Below, one piece after another: positions 2,051 to 27,936 of a DNA stretch of 28,576 nt. The stretch comes from Planctomycetota bacterium. Lineage in GTDB: Bacteria; Planctomycetota; Phycisphaerae; Phycisphaerales; UBA1924. Every line of letters starts with the position of its first letter. Within the stretch, counting starts at the first letter, position 1. A program made the translations under genes and the position numbers. The stretch covers positions 1 through 28,576 of the forward strand of contig JBCAXI010000001.1 of NCBI GenBank assembly GCA_038534175.1, in the 5' to 3' direction. The notes under the pieces were generated by a model. It saw nothing but the letters and a program-made list of their open reading frames with translations, was not told the DNA's origin and ran no database searches.

Positions 2051-3742
2051 ATGTCTTGTCGCCTCACGCGCCGTTCCATGCGCGATGTCTCGCGTTGCCT
2101 CGCCGCCGCCATGGTCGTCGCGCCAGCCGGTCTCGCGCTCGCGCAGTCCGATCTACTCCCCGACATCGTCACGCGACAGAGCGATCTGTTCGACAACGAC
2201 ATCGTCACCAACATCTCGCCAGGACGCACGCACCTGCGCCTCTCCAACGGCACCGCCAACTCGGGCGTCGGCAAGCTCCACCTCTTCGGTGGACCCAGCA
2301 ACGGCGACGGCACCCAGCAAGTCTTCCAGCGCGTCTACCGCACCGACGGCTCCCACTGGGACCGCGTCGCGGGCAACTTCGTCTTCCACCCCGGGCACAA
2401 CCACATCCACTTCGAGGACTGGGCGATCTACCGACTGCGTGAGATCCTGCCCGGTGACGGCGTCGGCCCGATCGTCGCCGAGGGCAAGAAGACCTCCTTC
2501 TGCATCATCGACCTCGGCGTCTACGACAGCTCCATTCCCGGATTCCTGCCGGGCGGCGAGTTCAACACCTGCGGGTCCACCACGCAGGGCCTCAGCGTCG
2601 GTTGGATCGACATCTACTCCAAGTTCCTCACCGACCAGAACATCGACATCACCGACGTCCCCGACGGCGAGTACTGGCTTGAGTCCACCGCCAACCCCGA
2701 CGGCCTCGCGCTCGAGCACTCCCTCTCGAACAACACCGCCCGCGTCAAGGTCACCATCGACATCGATGGCGGCGGCGGCCCCGGCGGCGGCGAAACCCTG
2801 CCCGCGGACGGCTACGAGCCCAACGACAACTTCCAGCAGGTCCTCAGCCGGCCCGCCGGCGGGCCCAACAGCCCCAACCTCGGGCCCTGCAACCCCGACC
2901 GGCTCGTGGAGGGTCTCACGGTCGATGACTACTTCGACAGCGACCGCTTCAGCTTCTACATGCCCGCGACCGGCGGCCCGGGCGACTACATCGAGGCACG
3001 CTTCGACCACAGCGACGGCGACCTCGACGTGCGCCTCTACAACAGCTTCAACCACACCGTCGCCACCGCCGACAGCGCCGACGATGACGAGGTCATCTCG
3101 ATGAACGGGCGCCCCTCGGGGTGGTACACCATCGAGGTCTACGGCTTCGAGGACGCGGTCAACGAGTACGACCTCTACGTCAACCCCTCGGCCAACCTCG
3201 CGCCCACCGTCACCCCCCTCGCCCCGCTCACCGACGACGCCGTCGTCTACTCGCTCGAGACCTACACCACCGAGTGGAGCTTCTCCGACCCCGAGAACAA
3301 CGACGCCTGGGTCACCATCTACGCCAACGAGACCCAGGACTTCAACGGTGCGCTCCAACTGCCCACCAGCCTCCACACCCCCGCCGAGCAGGGCCTGCAC
3401 GTCATCAACACCACCTACCTCGCCGAGAACACCACGTATTGGATCTACCAGGAGATCACCGACGGCGGCACGACCAGCGGCGCTTGGGCCCCCGGTCGCC
3501 TGACCATGACCGGCCAGGCCTGCTCCGCGGCCGACATCACCACCGACGGCACCTCCAACGAGCTGCCCGATGGCGCCGTCACCATCTCCGACTTCTCCGT
3601 CTACCTCAACTGGTGGTCCACCGCCGATAGCCGCGCCGACATCACCGTGACCGGCGTGTGCAACCCGGGCAACGGCGGCGACGGCGTCGACCTCTCTGAC
3701 TTCTCCTGCTACCTCGACGCCTGGTCGCAGGGCTGCCCCTAA
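2051..3742 (+). CDS. secreted bacterial lysyl oxidase family protein with PPC-like domain and C-terminal dockerin-like module
   Basis: Start moved from 1793 to ATG 2051 (aaggga SD-like upstream; 2078 is an alternative). Signal peptide ends in ALA-Q. Cu-binding HPGHNHIH at 2387-2410, KTSFC (LTQ Lys, 2489-2491) and GWIDIY (LTQ Tyr, 2615-2617), followed by QNIDITDVPDGEYWL..NPD..E...NN as in the LOX catalytic domain. YEPND...DGDLDVRLY...YTIEVYGF is pre-peptidase C-terminal-like. Confidence 0.85.
   Translation: MSCRLTRRSMRDVSRCLAAAMVVAPAGLALAQSDLLPDIVTRQSDLFDNDIVTNISPGRTHLRLSNGTANSGVGKLHLFGGPSNGDGTQQVFQRVYRTDGSHWDRVAGNFVFHPGHNHIHFEDWAIYRLREILPGDGVGPIVAEGKKTSFCIIDLGVYDSSIPGFLPGGEFNTCGSTTQGLSVGWIDIYSKFLTDQNIDITDVPDGEYWLESTANPDGLALEHSLSNNTARVKVTIDIDGGGGPGGGETLPADGYEPNDNFQQVLSRPAGGPNSPNLGPCNPDRLVEGLTVDDYFDSDRFSFYMPATGGPGDYIEARFDHSDGDLDVRLYNSFNHTVATADSADDDEVISMNGRPSGWYTIEVYGFEDAVNEYDLYVNPSANLAPTVTPLAPLTDDAVVYSLETYTTEWSFSDPENNDAWVTIYANETQDFNGALQLPTSLHTPAEQGLHVINTTYLAENTTYWIYQEITDGGTTSGAWAPGRLTMTGQACSAADITTDGTSNELPDGAVTISDFSVYLNWWSTADSRADITVTGVCNPGNGGDGVDLSDFSCYLDAWSQGCP
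3521..3739 (+). repeat. C-terminal dockerin-like (GC-type) module, copy 2
   Basis: CSAADITTDG...PDGAVTISDFSVYLNWW...ADIT..VC-x15-CYLDAWSQGCP; 73 aa. Confidence 0.85.
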
Positions 3743-3869: not shown

Positions 3870-5243
3870 ATGACATACCGACAAACACGCCGCATCGATC
3901 GACTCGGTTCCGTGCTCACGATCGCCGTCGCGGCGGGGCTCGCGAGCGCGCAGCCGCTCGATCTTGTCTTCTTCTTCCATGATCAGACGCCCGACGTCAT
4001 CTACCGCGCGTGGGACGCCAACGGCGACGGCGACTGCCACGACCCGGGCGAGGTCACGGTCTTCGTCGACGACGCCGACATGCTGCTGGGCATCGACAAC
4101 GCGCAGGGCCTCGTCGCGCTCAGCGCCACTTCCATCATCGCGACGGACAACTTCGAGCCCGACAACATCGTGCGCTTCGTCGACACCAACCTCGACGGCG
4201 ACGCGCTCGATGCGGGCGAGGCCAGCGTGTTCTTCTCGGGCGACATCGGCGGGGGCGAGACGCTCTCGAATCCCACCGATCTGTTCGACGCGCCCGACGG
4301 ATCGTTCTGGATCGTCGATGTCACGGTCGGCGTCACGCCGGCGCCGCCCTCGCGCGTCTACCGGTTGGAGGATCTCAACGAAGACCAGGACGCCGACGAC
4401 CCCGGCGAGCGCACGGACTTTTTCGAGCTCGCGCCCGCAGGCATGGGCGGGCCGGCGATCTTCGATCTCGTCGTCGGCGCGGGCGGGGAGGTGTACGTCT
4501 GCGACCTCAGCGACCCGCAGCAGATCGAGTCGATCGACGTCATCGATCCCGCCGGCGTGGCGCGCACGGAGTGGCTCGGCAGCGACACGCTCTTCGGGCT
4601 GACGGGCCAGTATCTCTTCAGCGGCACCTACGAGCTGGAGATCGATCCCGCCCAGGGCGTCGTCTACTTCAGCCCGTCGACGCTCAACAACAACGCCGCC
4701 CTGCTCGGGGCCCGCGATCTCAACGGCAGCGGCGATATCGACGCGCCCAACGAGGTCGTGGTGTTCTTCGACGAGAACGCCTCGGCCGAGGGAATCAACG
4801 TTGGCTCGCTGCGCGACTTCAAGCGCCTGGACGACGGGCGGTTCGTCGCGACCGACGCCGGGCAAGATCGCGTCTACGTGCTCGAGGATCTGAACACCGA
4901 TTTCGACTTCAATGACGCGGGCGAGATCCGCGTGGCGTACGACGGCGACACCGCCGCGGCGAACGGAGAGCCGGACCTCATCCTGCCCCTCTCCATCGAC
5001 GCGGCACCGCTGCCCGCGGGCTGCGGGCCGGGCGATCTGACGACCACCGGCTCGGACCTTGGTGTGCCCGACGGGCTCGTCGATCTCTCGGACTTCTCGT
5101 ACTACTTGGGCCTCTGGGCCGCCGACGCGCCGCGCGCCGATGTCACGCCAGAGAGCACGTGCGACTTCAACGTGCCCGATGGCGCCGTCACGCTCTCAGA
5201 CTTCGCGTGCTACCTCAGCGTCTGGGCCACCGGCTGCCCCTGA
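3870..5243 (+). CDS. secreted probable beta-propeller protein with five DxNxDxD-type acidic loops and C-terminal dockerin-like module
   Basis: ATG 3870 with gggagg SD 8 nt upstream (the ORF track start at 3789 lies inside the terminator). Signal peptide ends in ASA-Q. Repeats DANGDGD, DTNLDGD, DLNEDQD, DLNGSGD and DLNTDFD are each followed by xxxxxE..xF. The catalytic function is not recognisable. Confidence 0.75.
   Translation: MTYRQTRRIDRLGSVLTIAVAAGLASAQPLDLVFFFHDQTPDVIYRAWDANGDGDCHDPGEVTVFVDDADMLLGIDNAQGLVALSATSIIATDNFEPDNIVRFVDTNLDGDALDAGEASVFFSGDIGGGETLSNPTDLFDAPDGSFWIVDVTVGVTPAPPSRVYRLEDLNEDQDADDPGERTDFFELAPAGMGGPAIFDLVVGAGGEVYVCDLSDPQQIESIDVIDPAGVARTEWLGSDTLFGLTGQYLFSGTYELEIDPAQGVVYFSPSTLNNNAALLGARDLNGSGDIDAPNEVVVFFDENASAEGINVGSLRDFKRLDDGRFVATDAGQDRVYVLEDLNTDFDFNDAGEIRVAYDGDTAAANGEPDLILPLSIDAAPLPAGCGPGDLTTTGSDLGVPDGLVDLSDFSYYLGLWAADAPRADVTPESTCDFNVPDGAVTLSDFACYLSVWATGCP
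5022..5240 (+). repeat. C-terminal dockerin-like (GC-type) module, copy 3
   Basis: CGPGDLTTTG...PDGLVDLSDFSYYLGLW...ADVT...C-x15-CYLSVWATGCP; 73 aa. Confidence 0.85.
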
Positions 5244-24003: not shown

Positions 24004-24696
24004 TTAGAACGGGCGCTTCACCGGATTGATCACCAGGTTGTCGCGCCCGCAGATGAGGACATCGGCGATCTCGATCGCCTCTTGGAACGACTCCCGCGCC
24101 AATTCCACGTCGTGCGCGAACGCCGCGACGCGTCCCGCCGCCAGGTGCTCGCCGGTCAGCACCGCGTCGCCCGCGATGAGCGTCGTGCGCGACGCCTCCT
24201 CCACGAGCAGGCCCGTCAGCCCGGGCGACACGCCCGGAAGCGGGAACAACGCGACGCGCGAGCCCAGCCGATCCGGCGCCGGGCGCGTTCGCTGCAAGAC
24301 CGAGATCTCCCGCTCCAGCGAGGGCTTGAGCTCCACGCCGATCGCATCGGCGGCGCCCTCGGCGATCCGCTTGAGCTCCATCGCCAGCGGCGCCCCGACC
24401 GCTTCCCGCTCGCGCTCGGCGATCCACCAGTCCGCCTCGTCGAATAATCCCAGCCCCCGCGTCGTGTCCGGCGCGAAGCGCGTGATGAAGACGTCCGTGA
24501 TCGCCTCGGGCCTCAGGTTGGCCCGCTCACCCAGCCGGGCCGACAGCGCCTCCGGTGGCAGGCCCGGATCGACCAGGATCAACCGATCCTCGTCGCGAAT
24601 GAGCGTCGTCGTCGCGTGCCCGGTGCGCACGCCCTTCCGCTCATCCCACAGGTCATTCGCCGACAACGTCCCGATCGAGATCACGCTCGCGTCCAT
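24004..24696 (-). CDS. metallo-beta-lactamase-fold protein lacking metal-binding histidines
   Basis: Start moved from 25113 to ATG 24696. TTTLIR..DRLILVDPG, ITDVFIT, WWIAERE, LFPLPG.SPG..GLL, TLIAGDAV and ADVLICG.DN follow the MBL layout, but HxHxDH reads RFAPDT. Confidence 0.75.
   Translation of the reverse strand: MDASVISIGTLSANDLWDERKGVRTGHATTTLIRDEDRLILVDPGLPPEALSARLGERANLRPEAITDVFITRFAPDTTRGLGLFDEADWWIAEREREAVGAPLAMELKRIAEGAADAIGVELKPSLEREISVLQRTRPAPDRLGSRVALFPLPGVSPGLTGLLVEEASRTTLIAGDAVLTGEHLAAGRVAAFAHDVELARESFQEAIEIADVLICGRDNLVINPVKRPF
24601..24696 (-). repeat. MBL-gene 5' end, intact copy (homologous to 26111-26206)
   Basis: Ungapped alignment at offset 1510 with start codons coinciding; about 62/95 nt and 21/32 aa identical (hand count). 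Confidence 0.85.
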
Positions 24697-24702
24697 GTGG
24701 AG

Positions 24703-24708
24703 ATCGTA
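24703..24708 (-). promoter_or_regulatory. putative -10 hexamer for leaderless MBL-fold gene
   Basis: TACGAT 6 nt before ATG 24696, no SD. Confidence 0.55.
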
Positions 24709-24835
24709 ACGGTCGATCGGCCTCCGCTTGTCTCTCTTCTCGTTTCGAGCACCCATTCCGATGCGTAACTCGGACATCGCGGGTGGTTGGCGCGGCGTCG
24801 GTCGCATGGCATGGTGCGATCCACGGAGGTGAGCG

Positions 24836-25975
24836 ATGATCGACCAACGAGTGGCGGGGGTGTGCCTTGGTGTGGTGTTCGCGGCGGTGGCGGCGGCCCA
24901 GCCGCGGGTGCTGTTTGTCCGAGGCGCCGAGCGCAGCGGCGGCTTTTTCGAGGCCGGCAACGACGCGGGTCTCACCGAGCAGCTCGCCGATATCAACAAC
25001 ACGGCGACCGGCGGCGGCAACCACGGCTGGTTTGAGTTCGCCGAGGCGCTCCGCGCCGATGGCTTCGTCGTTGAGCAGATCATCGAGCCGCTCGAGGTTG
25101 GGGCGCCCTCCACGGGCCAGACCGACGGCGCCCCGATCGCGTTCGAGTCGATCGATCTGAGCGTCTACGACGCGCTCGTCTTCGGCTCCAACAACGCGGT
25201 CTACCCGAGCGCCAGCGTCGACGCGGTGGAGGCGTACGTGCGTACCGGCGGCGCCGCGATGTTCATCAGTGATGCCAATTTCGGCTCCGACTGGCCCGAC
25301 GCCTCGACCTCGGACCAGTTCTTTCTCGATCGCTTCGGCTGGGTCATGCAGCAGGATCGCGGCACCTATCGCCTCGGCCGCGCCGACGGCGACTTCCTCG
25401 AGCCCGACGCCGCCATCCTCGCTAACGTCGACGACATCGACGGCGAGGGCGTCTCGCCCATCGTTGTGCCGACGACGGATCTGCCCGGCGTCGAGAGCCT
25501 GCTCGTCGTGCGCGCAAACCCGGGCAGCCAGACGCGCAACAACGACTCGACCAGCGGGCAGGGCAGCAGCCGGCCCGTCGGGCCGCAGGACGCCGCGCTC
25601 GCCGTCGCGTTCGTCGAGTGCGGCCGCATCGCCGGGCACTACGACCGCAACACGTTCTTCAATCTCAACGGCGCCGGCACCAGTATCAACCGCTTCGACA
25701 ACATGGCCTACGCGGTGCAGCTCGTCCGCTGGCTGGCGATCGACCCGGCGGACATCACGTCGGAGGGCGTGTGCGACGCGACGGGTGCCGCCAGCGCCGT
25801 CGATGGCGCCGTCACGCTGAGCGATTTCGGTTGTTACCTGAGCGAGTGGTCGAATAACACCGTCGCCGCGGACATCACCACCGACGGCGCCTGCCAGCCC
25901 GGCTTCGGCGGCGACGGCGTGACGCTGAGCGATTTCTCGTGCTACCTGTCGCGGTGGGCGCAGAGCTGCCCGTGA
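24836..25975 (+). CDS. secreted protein, probable class I GATase-like/ThuA-like alpha-beta domain, with C-terminal dockerin-like module
   Basis: ggaggt SD; signal peptide ends in AAA-Q. PRVLF..., HGW..FAEALRADGFVVE, LSVYDALVFGS and AVEAYVRTGGAAMFISD are characteristic of GATase-like folds. Ends in ...SCYLSRWAQSCP. Confidence 0.75.
   Translation: MIDQRVAGVCLGVVFAAVAAAQPRVLFVRGAERSGGFFEAGNDAGLTEQLADINNTATGGGNHGWFEFAEALRADGFVVEQIIEPLEVGAPSTGQTDGAPIAFESIDLSVYDALVFGSNNAVYPSASVDAVEAYVRTGGAAMFISDANFGSDWPDASTSDQFFLDRFGWVMQQDRGTYRLGRADGDFLEPDAAILANVDDIDGEGVSPIVVPTTDLPGVESLLVVRANPGSQTRNNDSTSGQGSSRPVGPQDAALAVAFVECGRIAGHYDRNTFFNLNGAGTSINRFDNMAYAVQLVRWLAIDPADITSEGVCDATGAASAVDGAVTLSDFGCYLSEWSNNTVAADITTDGACQPGFGGDGVTLSDFSCYLSRWAQSCP
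25742..25972 (+). repeat. C-terminal dockerin-like (GC-type) module, copy 5 (variant)
   Basis: DPADITSEGVC-x19-CYLSEW...ADITTDGAC-x15-CYLSRWAQSCP. It lacks the N-terminal Cys and has a Cys pair in both halves. Confidence 0.8.
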
Positions 25976-25987
25976 CGCGCATCGAGA

Positions 25988-26109
25988 TCAGTTCGTTTCG
26001 CCGCCCGCGAAGCGCATCAACGCTGGGTGGCGCTCGGCCTTCTTGTCGCGCAGCTTATGAATGACCAGCTCGGGCACCATCGGCGCCAGCTTGCTCAGGT
26101 CGTCGCCCA
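25988..26109 (-). repeat. coaD 3' end, second copy (direct repeat of 27367-27488)
   Basis: Ungapped at offset 1379. Core 26004-26109 vs 27383-27488 is 95/106 identical (hand count), 26067-26109 is a 43-bp perfect match, and the stop codons coincide. Confidence 0.95.
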
Positions 26110-26110
26110 G

Positions 26111-26206
26111 CAGCGTTGTCGTCGCGTGCTCCATGCGTACGGGGCGACGCTCGTCCCATAGGTCGTTGGCGGCAAGAGCGTCGGTGGAGATGACACAGAG
26201 TCCCAT
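26111..26206 (-). repeat. MBL-gene 5' end, second diverged copy (homologous to 24601-24696)
   Basis: See 24601-24696; about 65% nt identity, same length, same start position. Confidence 0.85.
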
Positions 26207-26213
26207 TGCAAAC

Positions 26214-26219
26214 AGGCTA
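26214..26219 (-). promoter_or_regulatory. putative -10 hexamer upstream of the chimeric ORF
   Basis: TAGCCT 7 nt before ATG 26206, the same geometry as at the intact MBL gene. Confidence 0.45.
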
Positions 26220-26284
26220 CTGCAGCGTTGTCTTGTGTGAGTCGCTCAACGTGCGGCGCCTATTGAGACACTAACCTGTCATGA

Positions 26285-27370
26285 TCAATCCGCGTTTATC
26301 CGCTTGACAATGGAGAGCAGATTCCCGCCGACGTCGTCCTCGTCATCGGGAAACACGTGCTCACCAACAAGCTGTCCTAGCTTGCGTCGAAGCTCAACAA
26401 CCAGTCTCTTGCCGTATTTCTCCAATTCACACGCATGATTGATCAACGCGCCGCAGGCCGGGACAAACAACTGCGATTCTCCAATGTCATCAGCTTCATG
26501 CACGACGATGTCCACAAGCGTGGGAACAACGACATCCAATCGCGCCACAGATTCTCCAAGGCCGTCCACCGCATACTCAGCGCATACCTCGCATGTCGAT
26601 GCCGCTCGCTTAATCAGCAACTCGGCAACCTTATCGTTCCTGGGCGCAATGCTCGCGAGGGCGCCCAGCTTTGCGTGTTCCTCGTCGCCTCGGCAAGCGC
26701 CTTCGGTGAGTTGTTCTATCCAGTCATTGACAACGGATGGCACGACTTCCGAGACGCTCGGACCGATGTGCCATAGGGCGCCTATAGCGTTGGCTCGAAC
26801 GTATGGTGACGGAGCGTGCAACCGCATCGCGATCTCACGGATGAGGTCCGGATCCTGACCTGCAACAGACGCCAACGCCTCGCAGAGCCCCTGCTCGTAC
26901 TCCCCGGATCTCACATCAAGTATCCGCAGTAACTCGGGCGCCAAAGCTCTTCCGTTCGCACCAATTTCCTGGCAGATCACAGCGATCGTCCTGAATCCGC
27001 TTGATGTGGCGCCGAGCGCCTGTATGGCTTCGGGCGTTTCCAGCGCCAACTCGCCGATGCACCGAAGAAACATGTGTGCGGCAAGGTGCCAGACAATCGC
27101 CTTTGAAGCCGATAGATTTTCTAGCGAGTTGCCTGCAGCGCCCCGTTCGGGATCGCTGGCATCTGCCACGCCCACGAGCCGCATGATGATCTCAGACGAA
27201 TCTCTTTGTGACTCTTTGGCTAGGAAGTGAATCGCGTCACGCACTTGGCGGGTATTGCTCGGAACATCCAAGTCTTTGAAGTAGTATCCGCCTGCAAAGG
27301 GCCGCTGCTTTTGGTCGCCGATAAGCCGGCGAATGCGCTCCGCGATCTCCTCTTTCGACAGCGCGCTCAC
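26285..27370 (-). CDS. low-GC hypothetical protein with HEAT/ARM-like helical repeats
   Basis: 361-aa ORF whose GTG overlaps the coaD TGA (GTGA at 27370-27367). HEAT-like segments (LHAPSPYVRANAIGALWHIG; CAEYAVDGLG...VVPTLVDIV) and many A/T-ending codons. Confidence 0.7.
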   Translation of the reverse strand: MSALSKEEIAERIRRLIGDQKQRPFAGGYYFKDLDVPSNTRQVRDAIHFLAKESQRDSSEIIMRLVGVADASDPERGAAGNSLENLSASKAIVWHLAAHMFLRCIGELALETPEAIQALGATSSGFRTIAVICQEIGANGRALAPELLRILDVRSGEYEQGLCEALASVAGQDPDLIREIAMRLHAPSPYVRANAIGALWHIGPSVSEVVPSVVNDWIEQLTEGACRGDEEHAKLGALASIAPRNDKVAELLIKRAASTCEVCAEYAVDGLGESVARLDVVVPTLVDIVVHEADDIGESQLFVPACGALINHACELEKYGKRLVVELRRKLGQLVGEHVFPDDEDDVGGNLLSIVKRINAD

Positions 27371-27488
27371 CCCTCTCCATCCCCCGCGAAGCGCATGAGC
27401 GCCGGATGCCGCTCCGCCTTCTTGTCGCGCAGCTTGCCGATGACAAGCTCGGGCACCATCGGCGCCAGCTTGCTCAGGTCGTCGCCCA
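27367..27488 (-). repeat. coaD 3' end, intact copy (direct repeat of 25988-26109)
   Basis: See 25988-26109. Confidence 0.95.
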
Positions 27489-27936
27489 TCGCCGTGATCT
27501 GCTTGATGAGCGAGCTGGACGTGTAGGCGAAGCTCTGGCCCGCGACGACGAAGGCGGTTTCGAGGCCCGCGACCTCGCGGTTGGTGATCGCTTGTTGGAC
27601 CTCGTATTGCAGGTCGGAGAGGTTGCGCACGCCGCGGAGGATGGCCATCGCGCCGACATCGCGGGCGAAATCGACCGTGAGTCCGCCGAAGGGCTCGACG
27701 CGCACGCCCCCGGCGTCGGGCTCGTCGCGCTCGAGCGCGCCCACGAGCGTGCGCGTCATCGCGACGCGTTCATCGCTGGAGAACAGCGGGTCCTTGCCCG
27801 GGTTCACGCCCACGCCCACCACGACCTCGTCGAACAGGCGCCGCCCGCGCGCGATCACGTCGAGGTGTCCGAAGGTGATCGGATCAAACGAGCCGGGATA
27901 GACGGCGCGGTGGAATCGAACAGGTGTGTCGGGCAC
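27367..27936 (-). CDS. coaD: pantetheine-phosphate adenylyltransferase
   Basis: AVYPGSFDPITFGHLDVI.RG, VGVNPGKDPLFS.DER, AILRGVR..SD..YE...A.TNR, LET.F and SSSLIKQI; short C-terminal extension KKAERHPALMRFAGDGEG. Confidence 0.97.
   Translation of the reverse strand: MPDTPVRFHRAVYPGSFDPITFGHLDVIARGRRLFDEVVVGVGVNPGKDPLFSSDERVAMTRTLVGALERDEPDAGGVRVEPFGGLTVDFARDVGAMAILRGVRNLSDLQYEVQQAITNREVAGLETAFVVAGQSFAYTSSSLIKQITAMGDDLSKLAPMVPELVIGKLRDKKAERHPALMRFAGDGEG

What the first reader, a model, noticed from the sequence alone, without database searches (positions are those of the whole stretch)
24600..27488. Two stacked cargo cassettes in a coaD-MBL slot, joined by an MBL::coaD fusion scar
Seen, reading the minus strand: coaD-5' [coaD-3' / HEAT gene / MBL-5'] [coaD-3' / secreted tagged gene / MBL-5'] MBL-3'. 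The units are 1379 bp (27488-26110) and 1510 bp (26109-24600). The two coaD ends are 95/106 identical, and 8 of the 11 differences are synonymous (the other 3 are one Gly/His codon). Both therefore evolved as functional coaD alleles in different lineages, not as a decaying local duplicate. The two MBL starts are about 65% identical. At the junction the parental genes share register-matched microhomology ACG-n3-AT-n2-GCGACGA (12/17). No recombinase gene is present. Established: homology-facilitated illegitimate recombination uses one homologous anchor plus a microhomology join. Inference: the interval between coaD and the MBL gene is a variable slot with different cargo in different strains. 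A relative's version was added in tandem rather than replacing the resident one, giving integrase-free cassette stacking at an essential gene.
Basis: partly seen in the sequence, partly recalled or inferred. Interest (0 to 1): 0.8.

Follow-up and report, generated by a model that had tools for sequence, protein, structure and literature searches.

The report
Recombination scar stacking two cargo genes
In an uncultured marine Phycisphaerae genome, two unrelated accessory genes sit one behind the other between the essential gene coaD and a metallo-beta-lactamase-fold gene, joined by a small chimeric gene that records a recombinase-free join; the structure is real and tidy, but it is a kind of event already known from other loci.

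Summary
Reading the minus strand, the order is: intact coaD, a low-GC orphan HEAT-repeat gene, a 72-codon in-frame chimera (33 codons of an MBL start plus the last 39 codons of coaD), a convergent GC-type-dockerin secreted gene, then an intact MBL gene.

The two coaD 3' copies are 95/106 identical. The first 43 nt are identical. The next 63 nt differ by 17%, almost only at synonymous sites.

An independent k=31 assembly of the same sample crosses the MBL::coaD joint, so the joint exists in DNA. The order of the two units rests on the MAG assembler alone.

In relatives, coaD and MBL are usually directly adjacent. The window's own clade and a few other genera carry different cargo there.

No recombinase lies on the contig.

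The best reading is one homology-facilitated illegitimate recombination between two versions of the locus. Which unit was the incoming one is unresolved, and no HEAT-only version was found anywhere.

The same logic is already proposed for Rhs, CDI and T6SS arrays, and e14 at icd gives the same outcome.

A second, independent insertion-with-duplication at the coaD 5' end was found in another genus (G233).

I class it as a new member of a known kind, of moderate interest.

The parts
27367..27936 (-). Intact coaD (pantetheine-phosphate adenylyltransferase), 189 aa. Its last 39 codons form 'copy A' of the duplicated 3' end.
   Evidence: PF01467 E=3.7e-21; TIGR01510 157.6 bits against a cut-off of 103; orthologues in 59 of 61 relatives.
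27383..27495 (-). coaD 3' repeat, copy A (functional end of coaD).
   Evidence: the repeat finder D1: 113 nt, 88% identical to 26004-26116; 95/106 by blastn.
27446..27488 (-). 43-nt stretch identical to 26067-26109. It begins exactly at the joint. I read it as the homologous exchange or conversion tract.
   Evidence: The first difference falls at base 42 of the shared reading frame. P=0.002 for such clustering of the 12 differences. Logan contigs break here.
26285..27370 (-). Cargo 1: orphan HEAT-repeat protein, 361 aa. Its GTG start overlaps the coaD stop. Its composition is foreign.
   Evidence: GC 0.575 and GC3 0.635, against GC3 0.88-0.93 in neighbouring genes. HEAT_2 match is weak. Only distant HEAT hits, E>=3.6e-12. 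All-HEAT solenoid by ESM Atlas, TM 0.56-0.60 over residues 1-361. No orthologue found.
26207..26284 (-). Spacer upstream of the MBL fragment (GC 0.53). It has TAGCCT at 26219-26214, 7 nt before the ATG, like the TAnnnT-6-ATG in front of intact MBL genes.
   Evidence: Read from the sequence: TACGAT-6-ATG before MBL-B. TACCCT-6-ATG before the L051 MBL gene.
25988..26206 (-). Chimeric ORF of 72 aa. Codons 1-33 are an MBL 5' fragment (26206-26108). Codons 34-72 are coaD 3' copy B (26107-25991) plus the stop.
   Evidence: Translation. 21/33 aa identical to the intact MBL start and 92% to the coaD end. No other copy among 5.8 billion proteins.
26100..26106 (-). Illegitimate joint: GCGACGA microhomology shared by coaD (27485-27479) and the MBL gene (24596-24590).
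   Evidence: Alignments A1 and A2 and the sequence. The joint is crossed by the independent Logan contig L050.
24836..25975 (+). Cargo 2: secreted GC-type-dockerin-anchored protein, 379 aa, convergent with coaD. It is the resident cargo of the genus.
   Evidence: NF041540 E=7.6e-11. The orthologue is in the same position in same-genus G001, 280/364 aa identical. GC3 is 0.905. The tag recurs about 48 times in the genome.
24004..24696 (-). Intact MBL-fold gene (230 aa), followed by amtB and the P-II gene as in relatives.
   Evidence: PF00753 E=4.7e-13. Orthologues in 56 of 61 relatives. Same synteny (MBL, Amt, P-II) on L051.

Best explanation
The stack is a passive scar of one recombination between two alternative versions ('haplotypes') of the coaD-cargo-MBL locus from related Phycisphaerae. 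Host recombination and repair made it; no recombinase of the element's own was involved.

One end of the exchange lies in the homologous coaD 3' end. There, a 43-nt identical stretch gives way at codon 164 to two alleles that differ at 17% of bases. The other end is an illegitimate, in-frame join at the 7-nt microhomology GCGACGA. It links codon 33 of one MBL allele to codon 151 of the other haplotype's coaD.

The result keeps one intact coaD and one intact MBL gene and traps both cargo genes. It leaves a 72-codon MBL::coaD chimera, which still has the MBL start's -10-like element.

Shown: the anatomy, the joint, the allelic nature of the two coaD ends, the foreign composition of the HEAT gene, the variability of the slot, and the absence of a recombinase.

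Inferred: the mechanism (HFIR) and a donor that was a relative.

Unresolved: the direction of the event.
(a) The HEAT unit was added to a resident coaD-secreted-MBL locus. This requires bridging of sister chromatids or a circular intermediate. It explains why the 43-nt stretches are identical and why same-genus G001 has the secreted gene.
(b) A linear piece starting inside a relative's coaD (coaD end, secreted gene, MBL and onward) was joined into codon 33 of a resident MBL behind the HEAT gene. This is the simplest topology.

Recombination between the two 43-nt identical stretches could delete the 1379-bp unit and still leave an intact coaD.
For: - Anatomy and repeat.
- The joint is reproduced by an independent k=31 assembly.
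- coaD 3' copies: 0 differences in the first 43 nt against 11 in the next 63 nt (P=0.002). In that distal part pS is 0.56 and pN is 0.06, and pS is as high as between species of the clade (0.40-0.56). Both copies end at the same codon.
- MBL fragment: pS 0.70 and pN 0.25. It shares the clade-specific ANDLW motif with MBL-B and the L051 MBL.
- HEAT gene GC3 is 0.635 against about 0.9 for native genes.
- Slot: empty in most genera, with different cargo in G001, L051, L053, G017 and G031.
- No tyrosine or serine recombinase on the contig, and the HEAT protein is an all-HEAT solenoid.
- Literature: HFIR is defined as a homologous anchor plus an illegitimate end and has been proposed for T6SS/Rhs arrays (PMC5361080). 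Interchromatid integration during transformation makes tandem duplications (PMC3784515).
- Independent analogue: in G233 (a 5-contig genome), a 146-nt coaD 5' duplication flanks a 1.39-kb single-gene insert that its congeners lack.
Against: - No donor-type haplotype (coaD-HEAT-MBL) exists in any collection searched.
- Only one assembly gives the order of the units. The k=31 graph also fits an uninterrupted chromosome plus a 1379-bp circle.
- Depth is only 10-16x, so strain mixtures cannot be judged.
- The MBL fragment has unique replacements at invariant sites (ISIG to ISTD, RTGH to RMEH), while coaD copy B shows little decay. The numbers are small, but the two relics do not look equally old.
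- Under direction (b), the 43-nt identity needs later gene conversion or chance.
- Classical HFIR events delete recipient DNA rather than duplicate it.
- Natural competence is unknown in this group.
Confidence: 0.6

Rival explanations
1. The 1379-bp unit is a small mobile module without its own recombinase, comparable to a cis-mobilisable element or to e14 at icd. It would carry a replacement coaD 3' end and use the 43-nt identical stretch as an att-like core. It would integrate and excise either through a recombinase supplied in trans or by RecA-dependent single crossover (Campbell type) of its circular form.
For: The identical 43-nt core starts exactly at the unit boundary and is followed by diverged arms. 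The insert-borne 3' end keeps coaD intact, as e14 does for icd/icdC (PMC13626634). The k=31 graph is compatible with a circle. The decay of the MBL fragment suggests the unit is older than its arrival here.
Against: No recombinase lies in the unit or on the contig; the genome's three tyrosine recombinases are on other contigs. The unit was found nowhere else. Its far end is a fragment of the neighbouring host gene, which points to an accidental origin rather than a dedicated attachment site. A simple Campbell crossover between diverged alleles would not make both cores identical.
Confidence: 0.15
2. A local tandem duplication arose by unequal sister-chromatid exchange at the GCGACGA microhomology and duplicated the segment from the coaD 3' end to the MBL 5' end. 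Later the cargo of one unit was replaced by the HEAT gene.
For: The architecture (5' part, [unit], [unit], 3' part) is that of a tandem duplication with a novel joint. The MBL fragment shares the motif NDLWDER with the resident MBL gene only.
Against: The two units share nothing but the 106-113-nt coaD end and the 99-nt MBL start, and their cargo genes are unrelated and on opposite strands. The coaD ends differ almost only synonymously (pN 0.06, pS 0.56), which a decaying copy would not show. This reading needs at least two further precise events.
Confidence: 0.1
3. The tandem order is an assembly artefact. The sample would hold a chromosome with coaD, tail B and the secreted gene, plus separate DNA that carries the HEAT unit. 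That separate DNA could be a circle, a multi-copy array, or a second strain, and the assembler threaded both through the 43-nt repeat.
For: The genome is a MAG of 546 contigs at 10-16x depth. Logan contigs break at the repeat. Depths differ somewhat: HEAT about 10, coaD 5' part 15.7, secreted gene and MBL 11.9.
Against: The MBL::coaD joint has only 7 nt of microhomology, so no k-mer assembler could have created it, and two assemblies agree on it. A 43-nt repeat is shorter than the final k of the usual metagenome assemblers (my knowledge; the assembler used here is unknown). A 1.4-kb circle with no replication gene should not be maintained. The depth differences are within the noise seen inside a single unit.
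Confidence: 0.1

Closest known systems
Homology-facilitated illegitimate recombination (HFIR; de Vries & Wackernagel 2002, Prudhomme et al. 2002, Meier & Wackernagel 2003, as cited in PMC5361080 and PMC3784515)
   Same: One end of the new DNA lies in a homologous anchor. The other end is joined at a short GC-rich microhomology. No dedicated recombinase is involved. Foreign DNA is trapped.
   Different: HFIR is known from laboratory transformation or conjugation and usually comes with deletion of recipient DNA. Here it is a natural scar in an uncultured planctomycete in which both versions are retained. The process itself could not be tested.
Sequential displacement arrays at polymorphic-toxin loci: T6SS effector-immunity arrays in Vibrio cholerae (PMC5361080), Rhs 'C-terminal displacement', CDI orphan modules
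   Same: A new 3' end plus cargo is placed behind a conserved 5' part. The old 3' end and its cargo are pushed downstream and kept. No integrase is involved, and HFIR has been proposed as the mechanism.
   Different: There, the displaced tips are variable toxin domains with immunity genes, and the stacks have an evident selective logic. Here the gene is the essential housekeeping gene coaD, the two ends encode nearly the same peptide, and the cargo genes are unrelated (a HEAT protein and a dockerin-anchored protein). The downstream joint is preserved as a chimera with the next gene.
e14 / phage 21 integration in icd of E. coli (icd plus the icdC pseudogene; PMC13626634 and Hill et al. 1989 cited there)
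   Same: The insert brings its own copy of the 3' end of a central metabolic gene. The displaced native 3' end remains as a fragment on the far side. The differences are mostly synonymous. The gene is intact with or without the insert.
   Different: e14 is a 15-kb prophage with its own integrase and a defined att site. The unit here is 1.4 kb, has one HEAT gene and no recombinase, and ends in a fragment of the neighbouring host gene.
Transformation-generated merodiploids by interchromatid integration (Johnston et al. 2013, PMC3784515)
   Same: It offers a tested way in which a single incoming fragment that pairs at two places on sister chromatids produces a tandem arrangement with a hybrid joint.
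   Different: That process uses long repeats (IS elements) at both pairings and duplicates 100-900 kb. Here one pairing would be a 7-nt microhomology and the unit is 1.4 kb.
Unit of evolution spanning the 3' part of one ORF, the spacer and the 5' part of the next ORF (S. aureus lpl cluster; PMC2568036)
   Same: The repeated unit runs from inside one gene to inside the next, not from gene start to gene end.
   Different: That case concerns tandem paralogues recombining with each other, not two unrelated flanking genes. I read only the abstract.

Membership tests
HFIR product | One boundary lies inside sequence homologous between the two parents. | tested here: met
   106-113-nt coaD 3' homology. 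It switches from 43/43 identity to 52/63 at codon 164.
HFIR product | The other boundary is a short (3-10 nt) microhomology between otherwise unrelated sequences. | tested here: met
   GCGACGA is shared by coaD codons 151-153 and MBL codons 34-36. The flanks are unrelated.
HFIR product | Non-homologous (foreign) DNA lies between the two boundaries. | tested here: met
   The orphan HEAT gene has GC3 0.635 against about 0.9 for native genes. In the other direction, the foreign DNA would be the secreted gene.
HFIR product | It arises from linear DNA taken up by transformation or conjugation and depends on RecA. | not testable with these tools
Competence of this lineage was not examined.
Site-specific integrative element (e14-like, CIME-like) | An integrase/recombinase gene in or beside the element. 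| tested here: not met
   PF00589 hits occur only on contigs C56, C119 and C132. PF00239 has no hit. The unit's only ORF is a HEAT solenoid.
Site-specific integrative element (e14-like, CIME-like) | Identical core repeats at both ends. | tested here: met
   43-nt identical stretches at 27446-27488 and 26067-26109.
Site-specific integrative element (e14-like, CIME-like) | The same element recurs at the same site in other genomes. | tested here: not met
   0 of 400 genomes of the order. No other protein or DNA match.
Ordinary tandem duplication | The two units are homologous along their whole length. | tested here: not met
   Only the unit ends match. The cargo genes are unrelated and on opposite strands.
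Horizontal-transfer hotspot between two core genes | The same pair of conserved flanking genes holds different accessory genes in related genomes. | tested here: met
   Six different contents were seen in G000, G001, L051, L053, G017 and G031. The slot is empty in 32 genomes.
Integron cassette array | An intI integrase with attI, and cassettes bounded by attC hairpins. | tested here: not met
   No tyrosine recombinase lies on the contig. The unit boundaries are gene fragments, not attC sites. attC folding as such was not tested.

The most novel reading that the evidence does not exclude
Phycisphaerae may possess a recurrent, recombinase-free way of adding single genes next to essential genes. 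In it, the interrupted gene end is duplicated, so the insert is viable and reversible. The 1379-bp coaD-end/HEAT/MBL-start unit would then be a circulating module that moves between relatives by recombination at the 43-nt core. The G233 insertion (146-nt duplication of the coaD 5' end) would be a second product of the same process.
Probability: 0.12. Interest if true: 0.7.

Novelty: new member of a known kind. Interest (0 to 1): 0.4.

Why it matters
Clear natural footprints of homology-facilitated illegitimate recombination are rare. Most evidence is from laboratory crosses or is inferred from toxin-immunity arrays whose downstream joints are lost.

Here both boundaries survive: a homologous switch point inside an essential gene, and an in-frame chimera at a 7-nt microhomology. 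The locus shows how accessory genes can accumulate between two core genes without any mobile-element machinery, and how duplicating the interrupted gene end lets an insertion inside an essential gene survive.

It is one event in one MAG, so its value is as a well-resolved example and a PCR-testable case, not as a new mechanism.

Tried and rejected
1. Search for the donor haplotype. The HEAT protein was searched against 5.8 billion proteins, 400 genomes of the order and 1.8 billion representatives by HMMER. Only its own fragment and distant HEAT repeats came back. The chimera had no other copy. Degenerate DNA patterns for the MBL-fragment peptide and for the tail motif shared by both coaD copies gave 0 hits in both the metagenome and genome collections.

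2. Read support. Only Logan k=31 contigs are held for the sample, so spanning reads could not be counted. Two other runs of the study do not hold the HEAT unit.

3. Polarising the coaD differences with G001, L051 and L053. Derived changes fall on both copies, so neither copy could be called resident.

4. Test for recent import of the secreted gene from a G001-like donor. pS is 0.498 for the secreted gene against 0.494 for coaD, so there is no signal.

5. Other relics. No further coaD 3' or MBL 5' fragments occur in the slots of the relatives fetched. The 56-aa MBL piece of G056 is just a contig end. The second coaD matches in eight other genomes are paralogues, frameshifts or contig splits, except in G233.

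6. Other gene-end duplications in this genome: none.

7. Source of the G233 insert inside its own genome or its congeners: none, only the dockerin tag recurs.

8. I first thought the two relics had very different ages (10% against 36% divergence). Codon-level counts showed that both pairs are near synonymous saturation, and that the gap comes from the identical 43-nt tract and from different protein constraint.

9. No structure prediction was run for the HEAT protein. The ESM Atlas model and its matches were enough to exclude a recombinase or nuclease domain.

Full report
WHAT IS THERE

The window is the whole 28.6-kb contig C1 of a 546-contig, 3.13-Mb MAG that is 85% complete. The closest named proteins are from Phycisphaerae/Phycisphaerales MAGs, and the sample is a marine metagenome.

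Reading the minus strand from 27936, the order is as follows.
- coaD, 189 aa, with PF01467 and TIGR01510 above their cut-offs.
- A 361-aa ORF whose GTG start overlaps the coaD TGA. It is a HEAT-repeat solenoid.
- A 78-nt spacer.
- A 72-codon ORF made of 33 codons of an MBL-type start fused in frame to the last 39 codons of coaD.
- After 12 nt, the end of a convergent plus-strand gene for a GC-type-dockerin-anchored secreted protein (NF041540).
- An intact 230-aa MBL-fold gene (PF00753), followed by amtB and a P-II gene.

- Units of 1379 and 1510 bp.
- A direct repeat of 113 nt at 88% identity, or 95/106 by blastn.
- Eight synonymous differences plus one Gly/His codon.
- MBL starts 63/99 nt identical.
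- GCGACGA at the joint, and in both parental genes.

The one correction is that the secreted gene is on the plus strand.

IS IT REAL?

The organism's run is held only as Logan k=31 contigs. One of them (L050, 935 nt, depth 10) matches window 26080-27014 exactly. It runs from the HEAT gene through the MBL fragment and 30 nt past the joint. A 7-nt microhomology cannot create a k-mer path, so the joint exists in DNA.

All Logan contigs end inside the stretch that the two coaD copies share (27459-27488 = 26080-26109). The graph therefore also fits an uninterrupted chromosome plus a 1379-bp circle, and the tandem order rests on the MAG assembler alone. Depths of 10-16x are too low and noisy to decide between these.

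A self-comparison of the whole assembly shows no other gene-end duplication.

THE SLOT

I searched 60 relatives of the family and order. In about 35 of them coaD and the MBL gene lie on one contig, on the same strand, within 3 kb. In 32 of those the gap between the matches is 15-250 nt, that is, they are directly adjacent.

Cargo occurs in G017 (2.9 kb, two genes), G031 (1.3 kb, a vWA-like gene) and G018 (0.46 kb), as shown. It also occurs throughout the window's own clade.
- Same-genus G001 has coaD, then a convergent membrane/zinc-ribbon gene, then the orthologue of the secreted gene, and then the contig ends.
- A JGI contig (L051, coaD 82% identical) has coaD, a different GC-dockerin gene, an FGE-sulfatase gene, then MBL, Amt and P-II.
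- L053 has yet another convergent gene.

So the interval is a hotspot with changing content. The secreted gene is the older resident of the genus.

THE HEAT GENE IS FOREIGN

Its GC3 is 0.635, against 0.88-0.93 in the neighbouring genes. It has no orthologue in 400 genomes of the order or among 5.8 billion proteins, apart from its own fragment. HMMER against 1.8 billion representatives finds only distant HEAT repeats.

THE TWO coaD ENDS

Codon by codon, the first 43 nt after the joint are identical. The next 22 codons have pS 0.56 and pN 0.06. The final four codons differ (DGEG against GETN), yet both copies stop at the same codon, as do all relatives.

Clustering of the differences away from the joint has P=0.002. 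A pS of 0.56 is as high as between G000 and G001, L051 or L053 (0.40-0.56).

Both ends share KLRDKK, a motif not found in any relative or in the public contig collections.

I read this as two alleles kept functional in two lineages of one sub-clade, with a recombination or conversion tract covering the first 43 nt. Polarising with three outgroups puts derived changes on both copies.

THE MBL FRAGMENT

It keeps the clade's ANDLW motif and the HATTTL motif, and has pS 0.70 and pN 0.25 against the intact gene. It also carries ISTD for the ISIG found in all 33 other orthologues examined (32 relatives plus the intact MBL-B), and RMEH for RTGH. It is therefore a real MBL start from the same clade that has lost constraint.

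It keeps a TAGCCT hexamer 7 nt before the ATG. This resembles the TAnnnT-6-ATG before the intact MBL genes here and on L051, so the chimera may still be transcribed.

MECHANISM

No tyrosine or serine recombinase lies on the contig, and the unit's only ORF is a HEAT solenoid.

One homologous boundary plus one microhomology joint around foreign DNA is the signature of homology-facilitated illegitimate recombination. That process has been proposed for the orphan arrays of T6SS, Rhs and CDI loci (PMC5361080). Two directions fit the data.

(a) The HEAT unit was added to a resident coaD-secreted-MBL locus.
- The joint lies upstream of the anchor, so a single linear replacement cannot do this.
- It needs bridging of sister chromatids, as shown for transformation-made merodiploids (PMC3784515), or a circular intermediate.
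- It would explain why both 43-nt stretches are identical (both from the recipient) and why G001 has the secreted gene.

(b) A linear piece from a relative was joined into codon 33 of a resident MBL gene and recombined homologously further downstream.
- The piece would begin inside the relative's coaD and carry the secreted gene and the MBL gene.
- This is the textbook topology, and G001-like donors exist.
- It leaves the 43-nt identity to chance or later conversion, and it needs an earlier HEAT acquisition.

I could not separate the two directions.

Rivals are listed with their evidence in the rival explanations: a trans-mobilised or Campbell-type module (0.15), a local tandem duplication followed by cargo replacement (0.10), and an assembly artefact (0.10).

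A SECOND CASE

I scanned 250 genomes of the family for extra coaD pieces. G233 is a 5-contig genome of another genus. It has a 146-nt duplication (144/146 identical) covering the coaD upstream region and the first 36 codons. The duplication flanks a 1.39-kb insert with one GC-dockerin HAF-repeat gene. Its congeners G545 and G507 have the empty site.

Both copies carry G233-specific variants, so the recipient's own sequence was duplicated. This shows, in a high-quality assembly, that insertions inside coaD survive in this family when the interrupted end is duplicated.

COMPARISON AND VERDICT

The outcome is the same as for e14 at icd: an insert-borne 3' end, with the displaced icdC fragment retained (PMC13626634). 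It also matches C-terminal displacement at Rhs/T6SS loci, but here there is no integrase and no toxin logic.

The structure is real and nicely resolved, but it is a single event in a MAG and belongs to a known kind of process. I class it as a new member of a known kind and score its interest at 0.4.

Noticed in passing
L054 (G233:C1:2697500-2704500) 2985-3155 and 4547-4717: In another genus of the family, a 146-nt near-identical duplication of the coaD upstream region plus its first 36 codons flanks a 1.39-kb insert. The insert carries one GC-dockerin HAF-repeat gene (404 aa). That gene's stop codon lies in the duplicated sequence. The upstream copy forms a 78-aa truncated coaD ORF. Congeners G545 and G507 lack both the insert and the duplication.
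   Followed up: partly
window 26214-26219, 24703-24708; L051 about 3558-3563: A TAnnnT hexamer lies 6-7 nt before the ATG of the intact MBL gene, of the chimera and of the L051 MBL gene, with no Shine-Dalgarno sequence. This is consistent with the leaderless-start pattern that another first-stage note reports for this contig.
   Followed up: partly
G000 contig C159, 609-703 and 1549-1643 (outside the window): Two copies (85% identical) of a 95-nt element whose ends are perfect inverted repeats (GGGTGCCGTGGTCTGA ... TCAGACCACGGCACCC). It looks like a REP- or MITE-like repeat.
   Followed up: no
L051 669-3493: In a related JGI contig, the coaD-MBL slot holds a different GC-dockerin protein (479 aa) and an FGE-sulfatase-domain protein, both convergent with coaD. 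GC-dockerin genes recur as cargo near coaD in three lineages, but the family has dozens of copies per genome.
   Followed up: partly
window 23782, 23936, 27244 (Logan contigs of run X1): Logan contigs of the source run end in Illumina adapter sequence at these points. Depth dips to about 5 at 27070-27239. So the public k=31 assembly is broken inside the HEAT gene, although the MAG contig is continuous.
   Followed up: no
L039 2991-3884 (G001) and L052 2555-3445: The same-genus relative has an extra 297-aa membrane protein with a C-terminal CxxC...CxxC zinc-ribbon between coaD and the secreted gene. The window lacks this gene.
   Followed up: no
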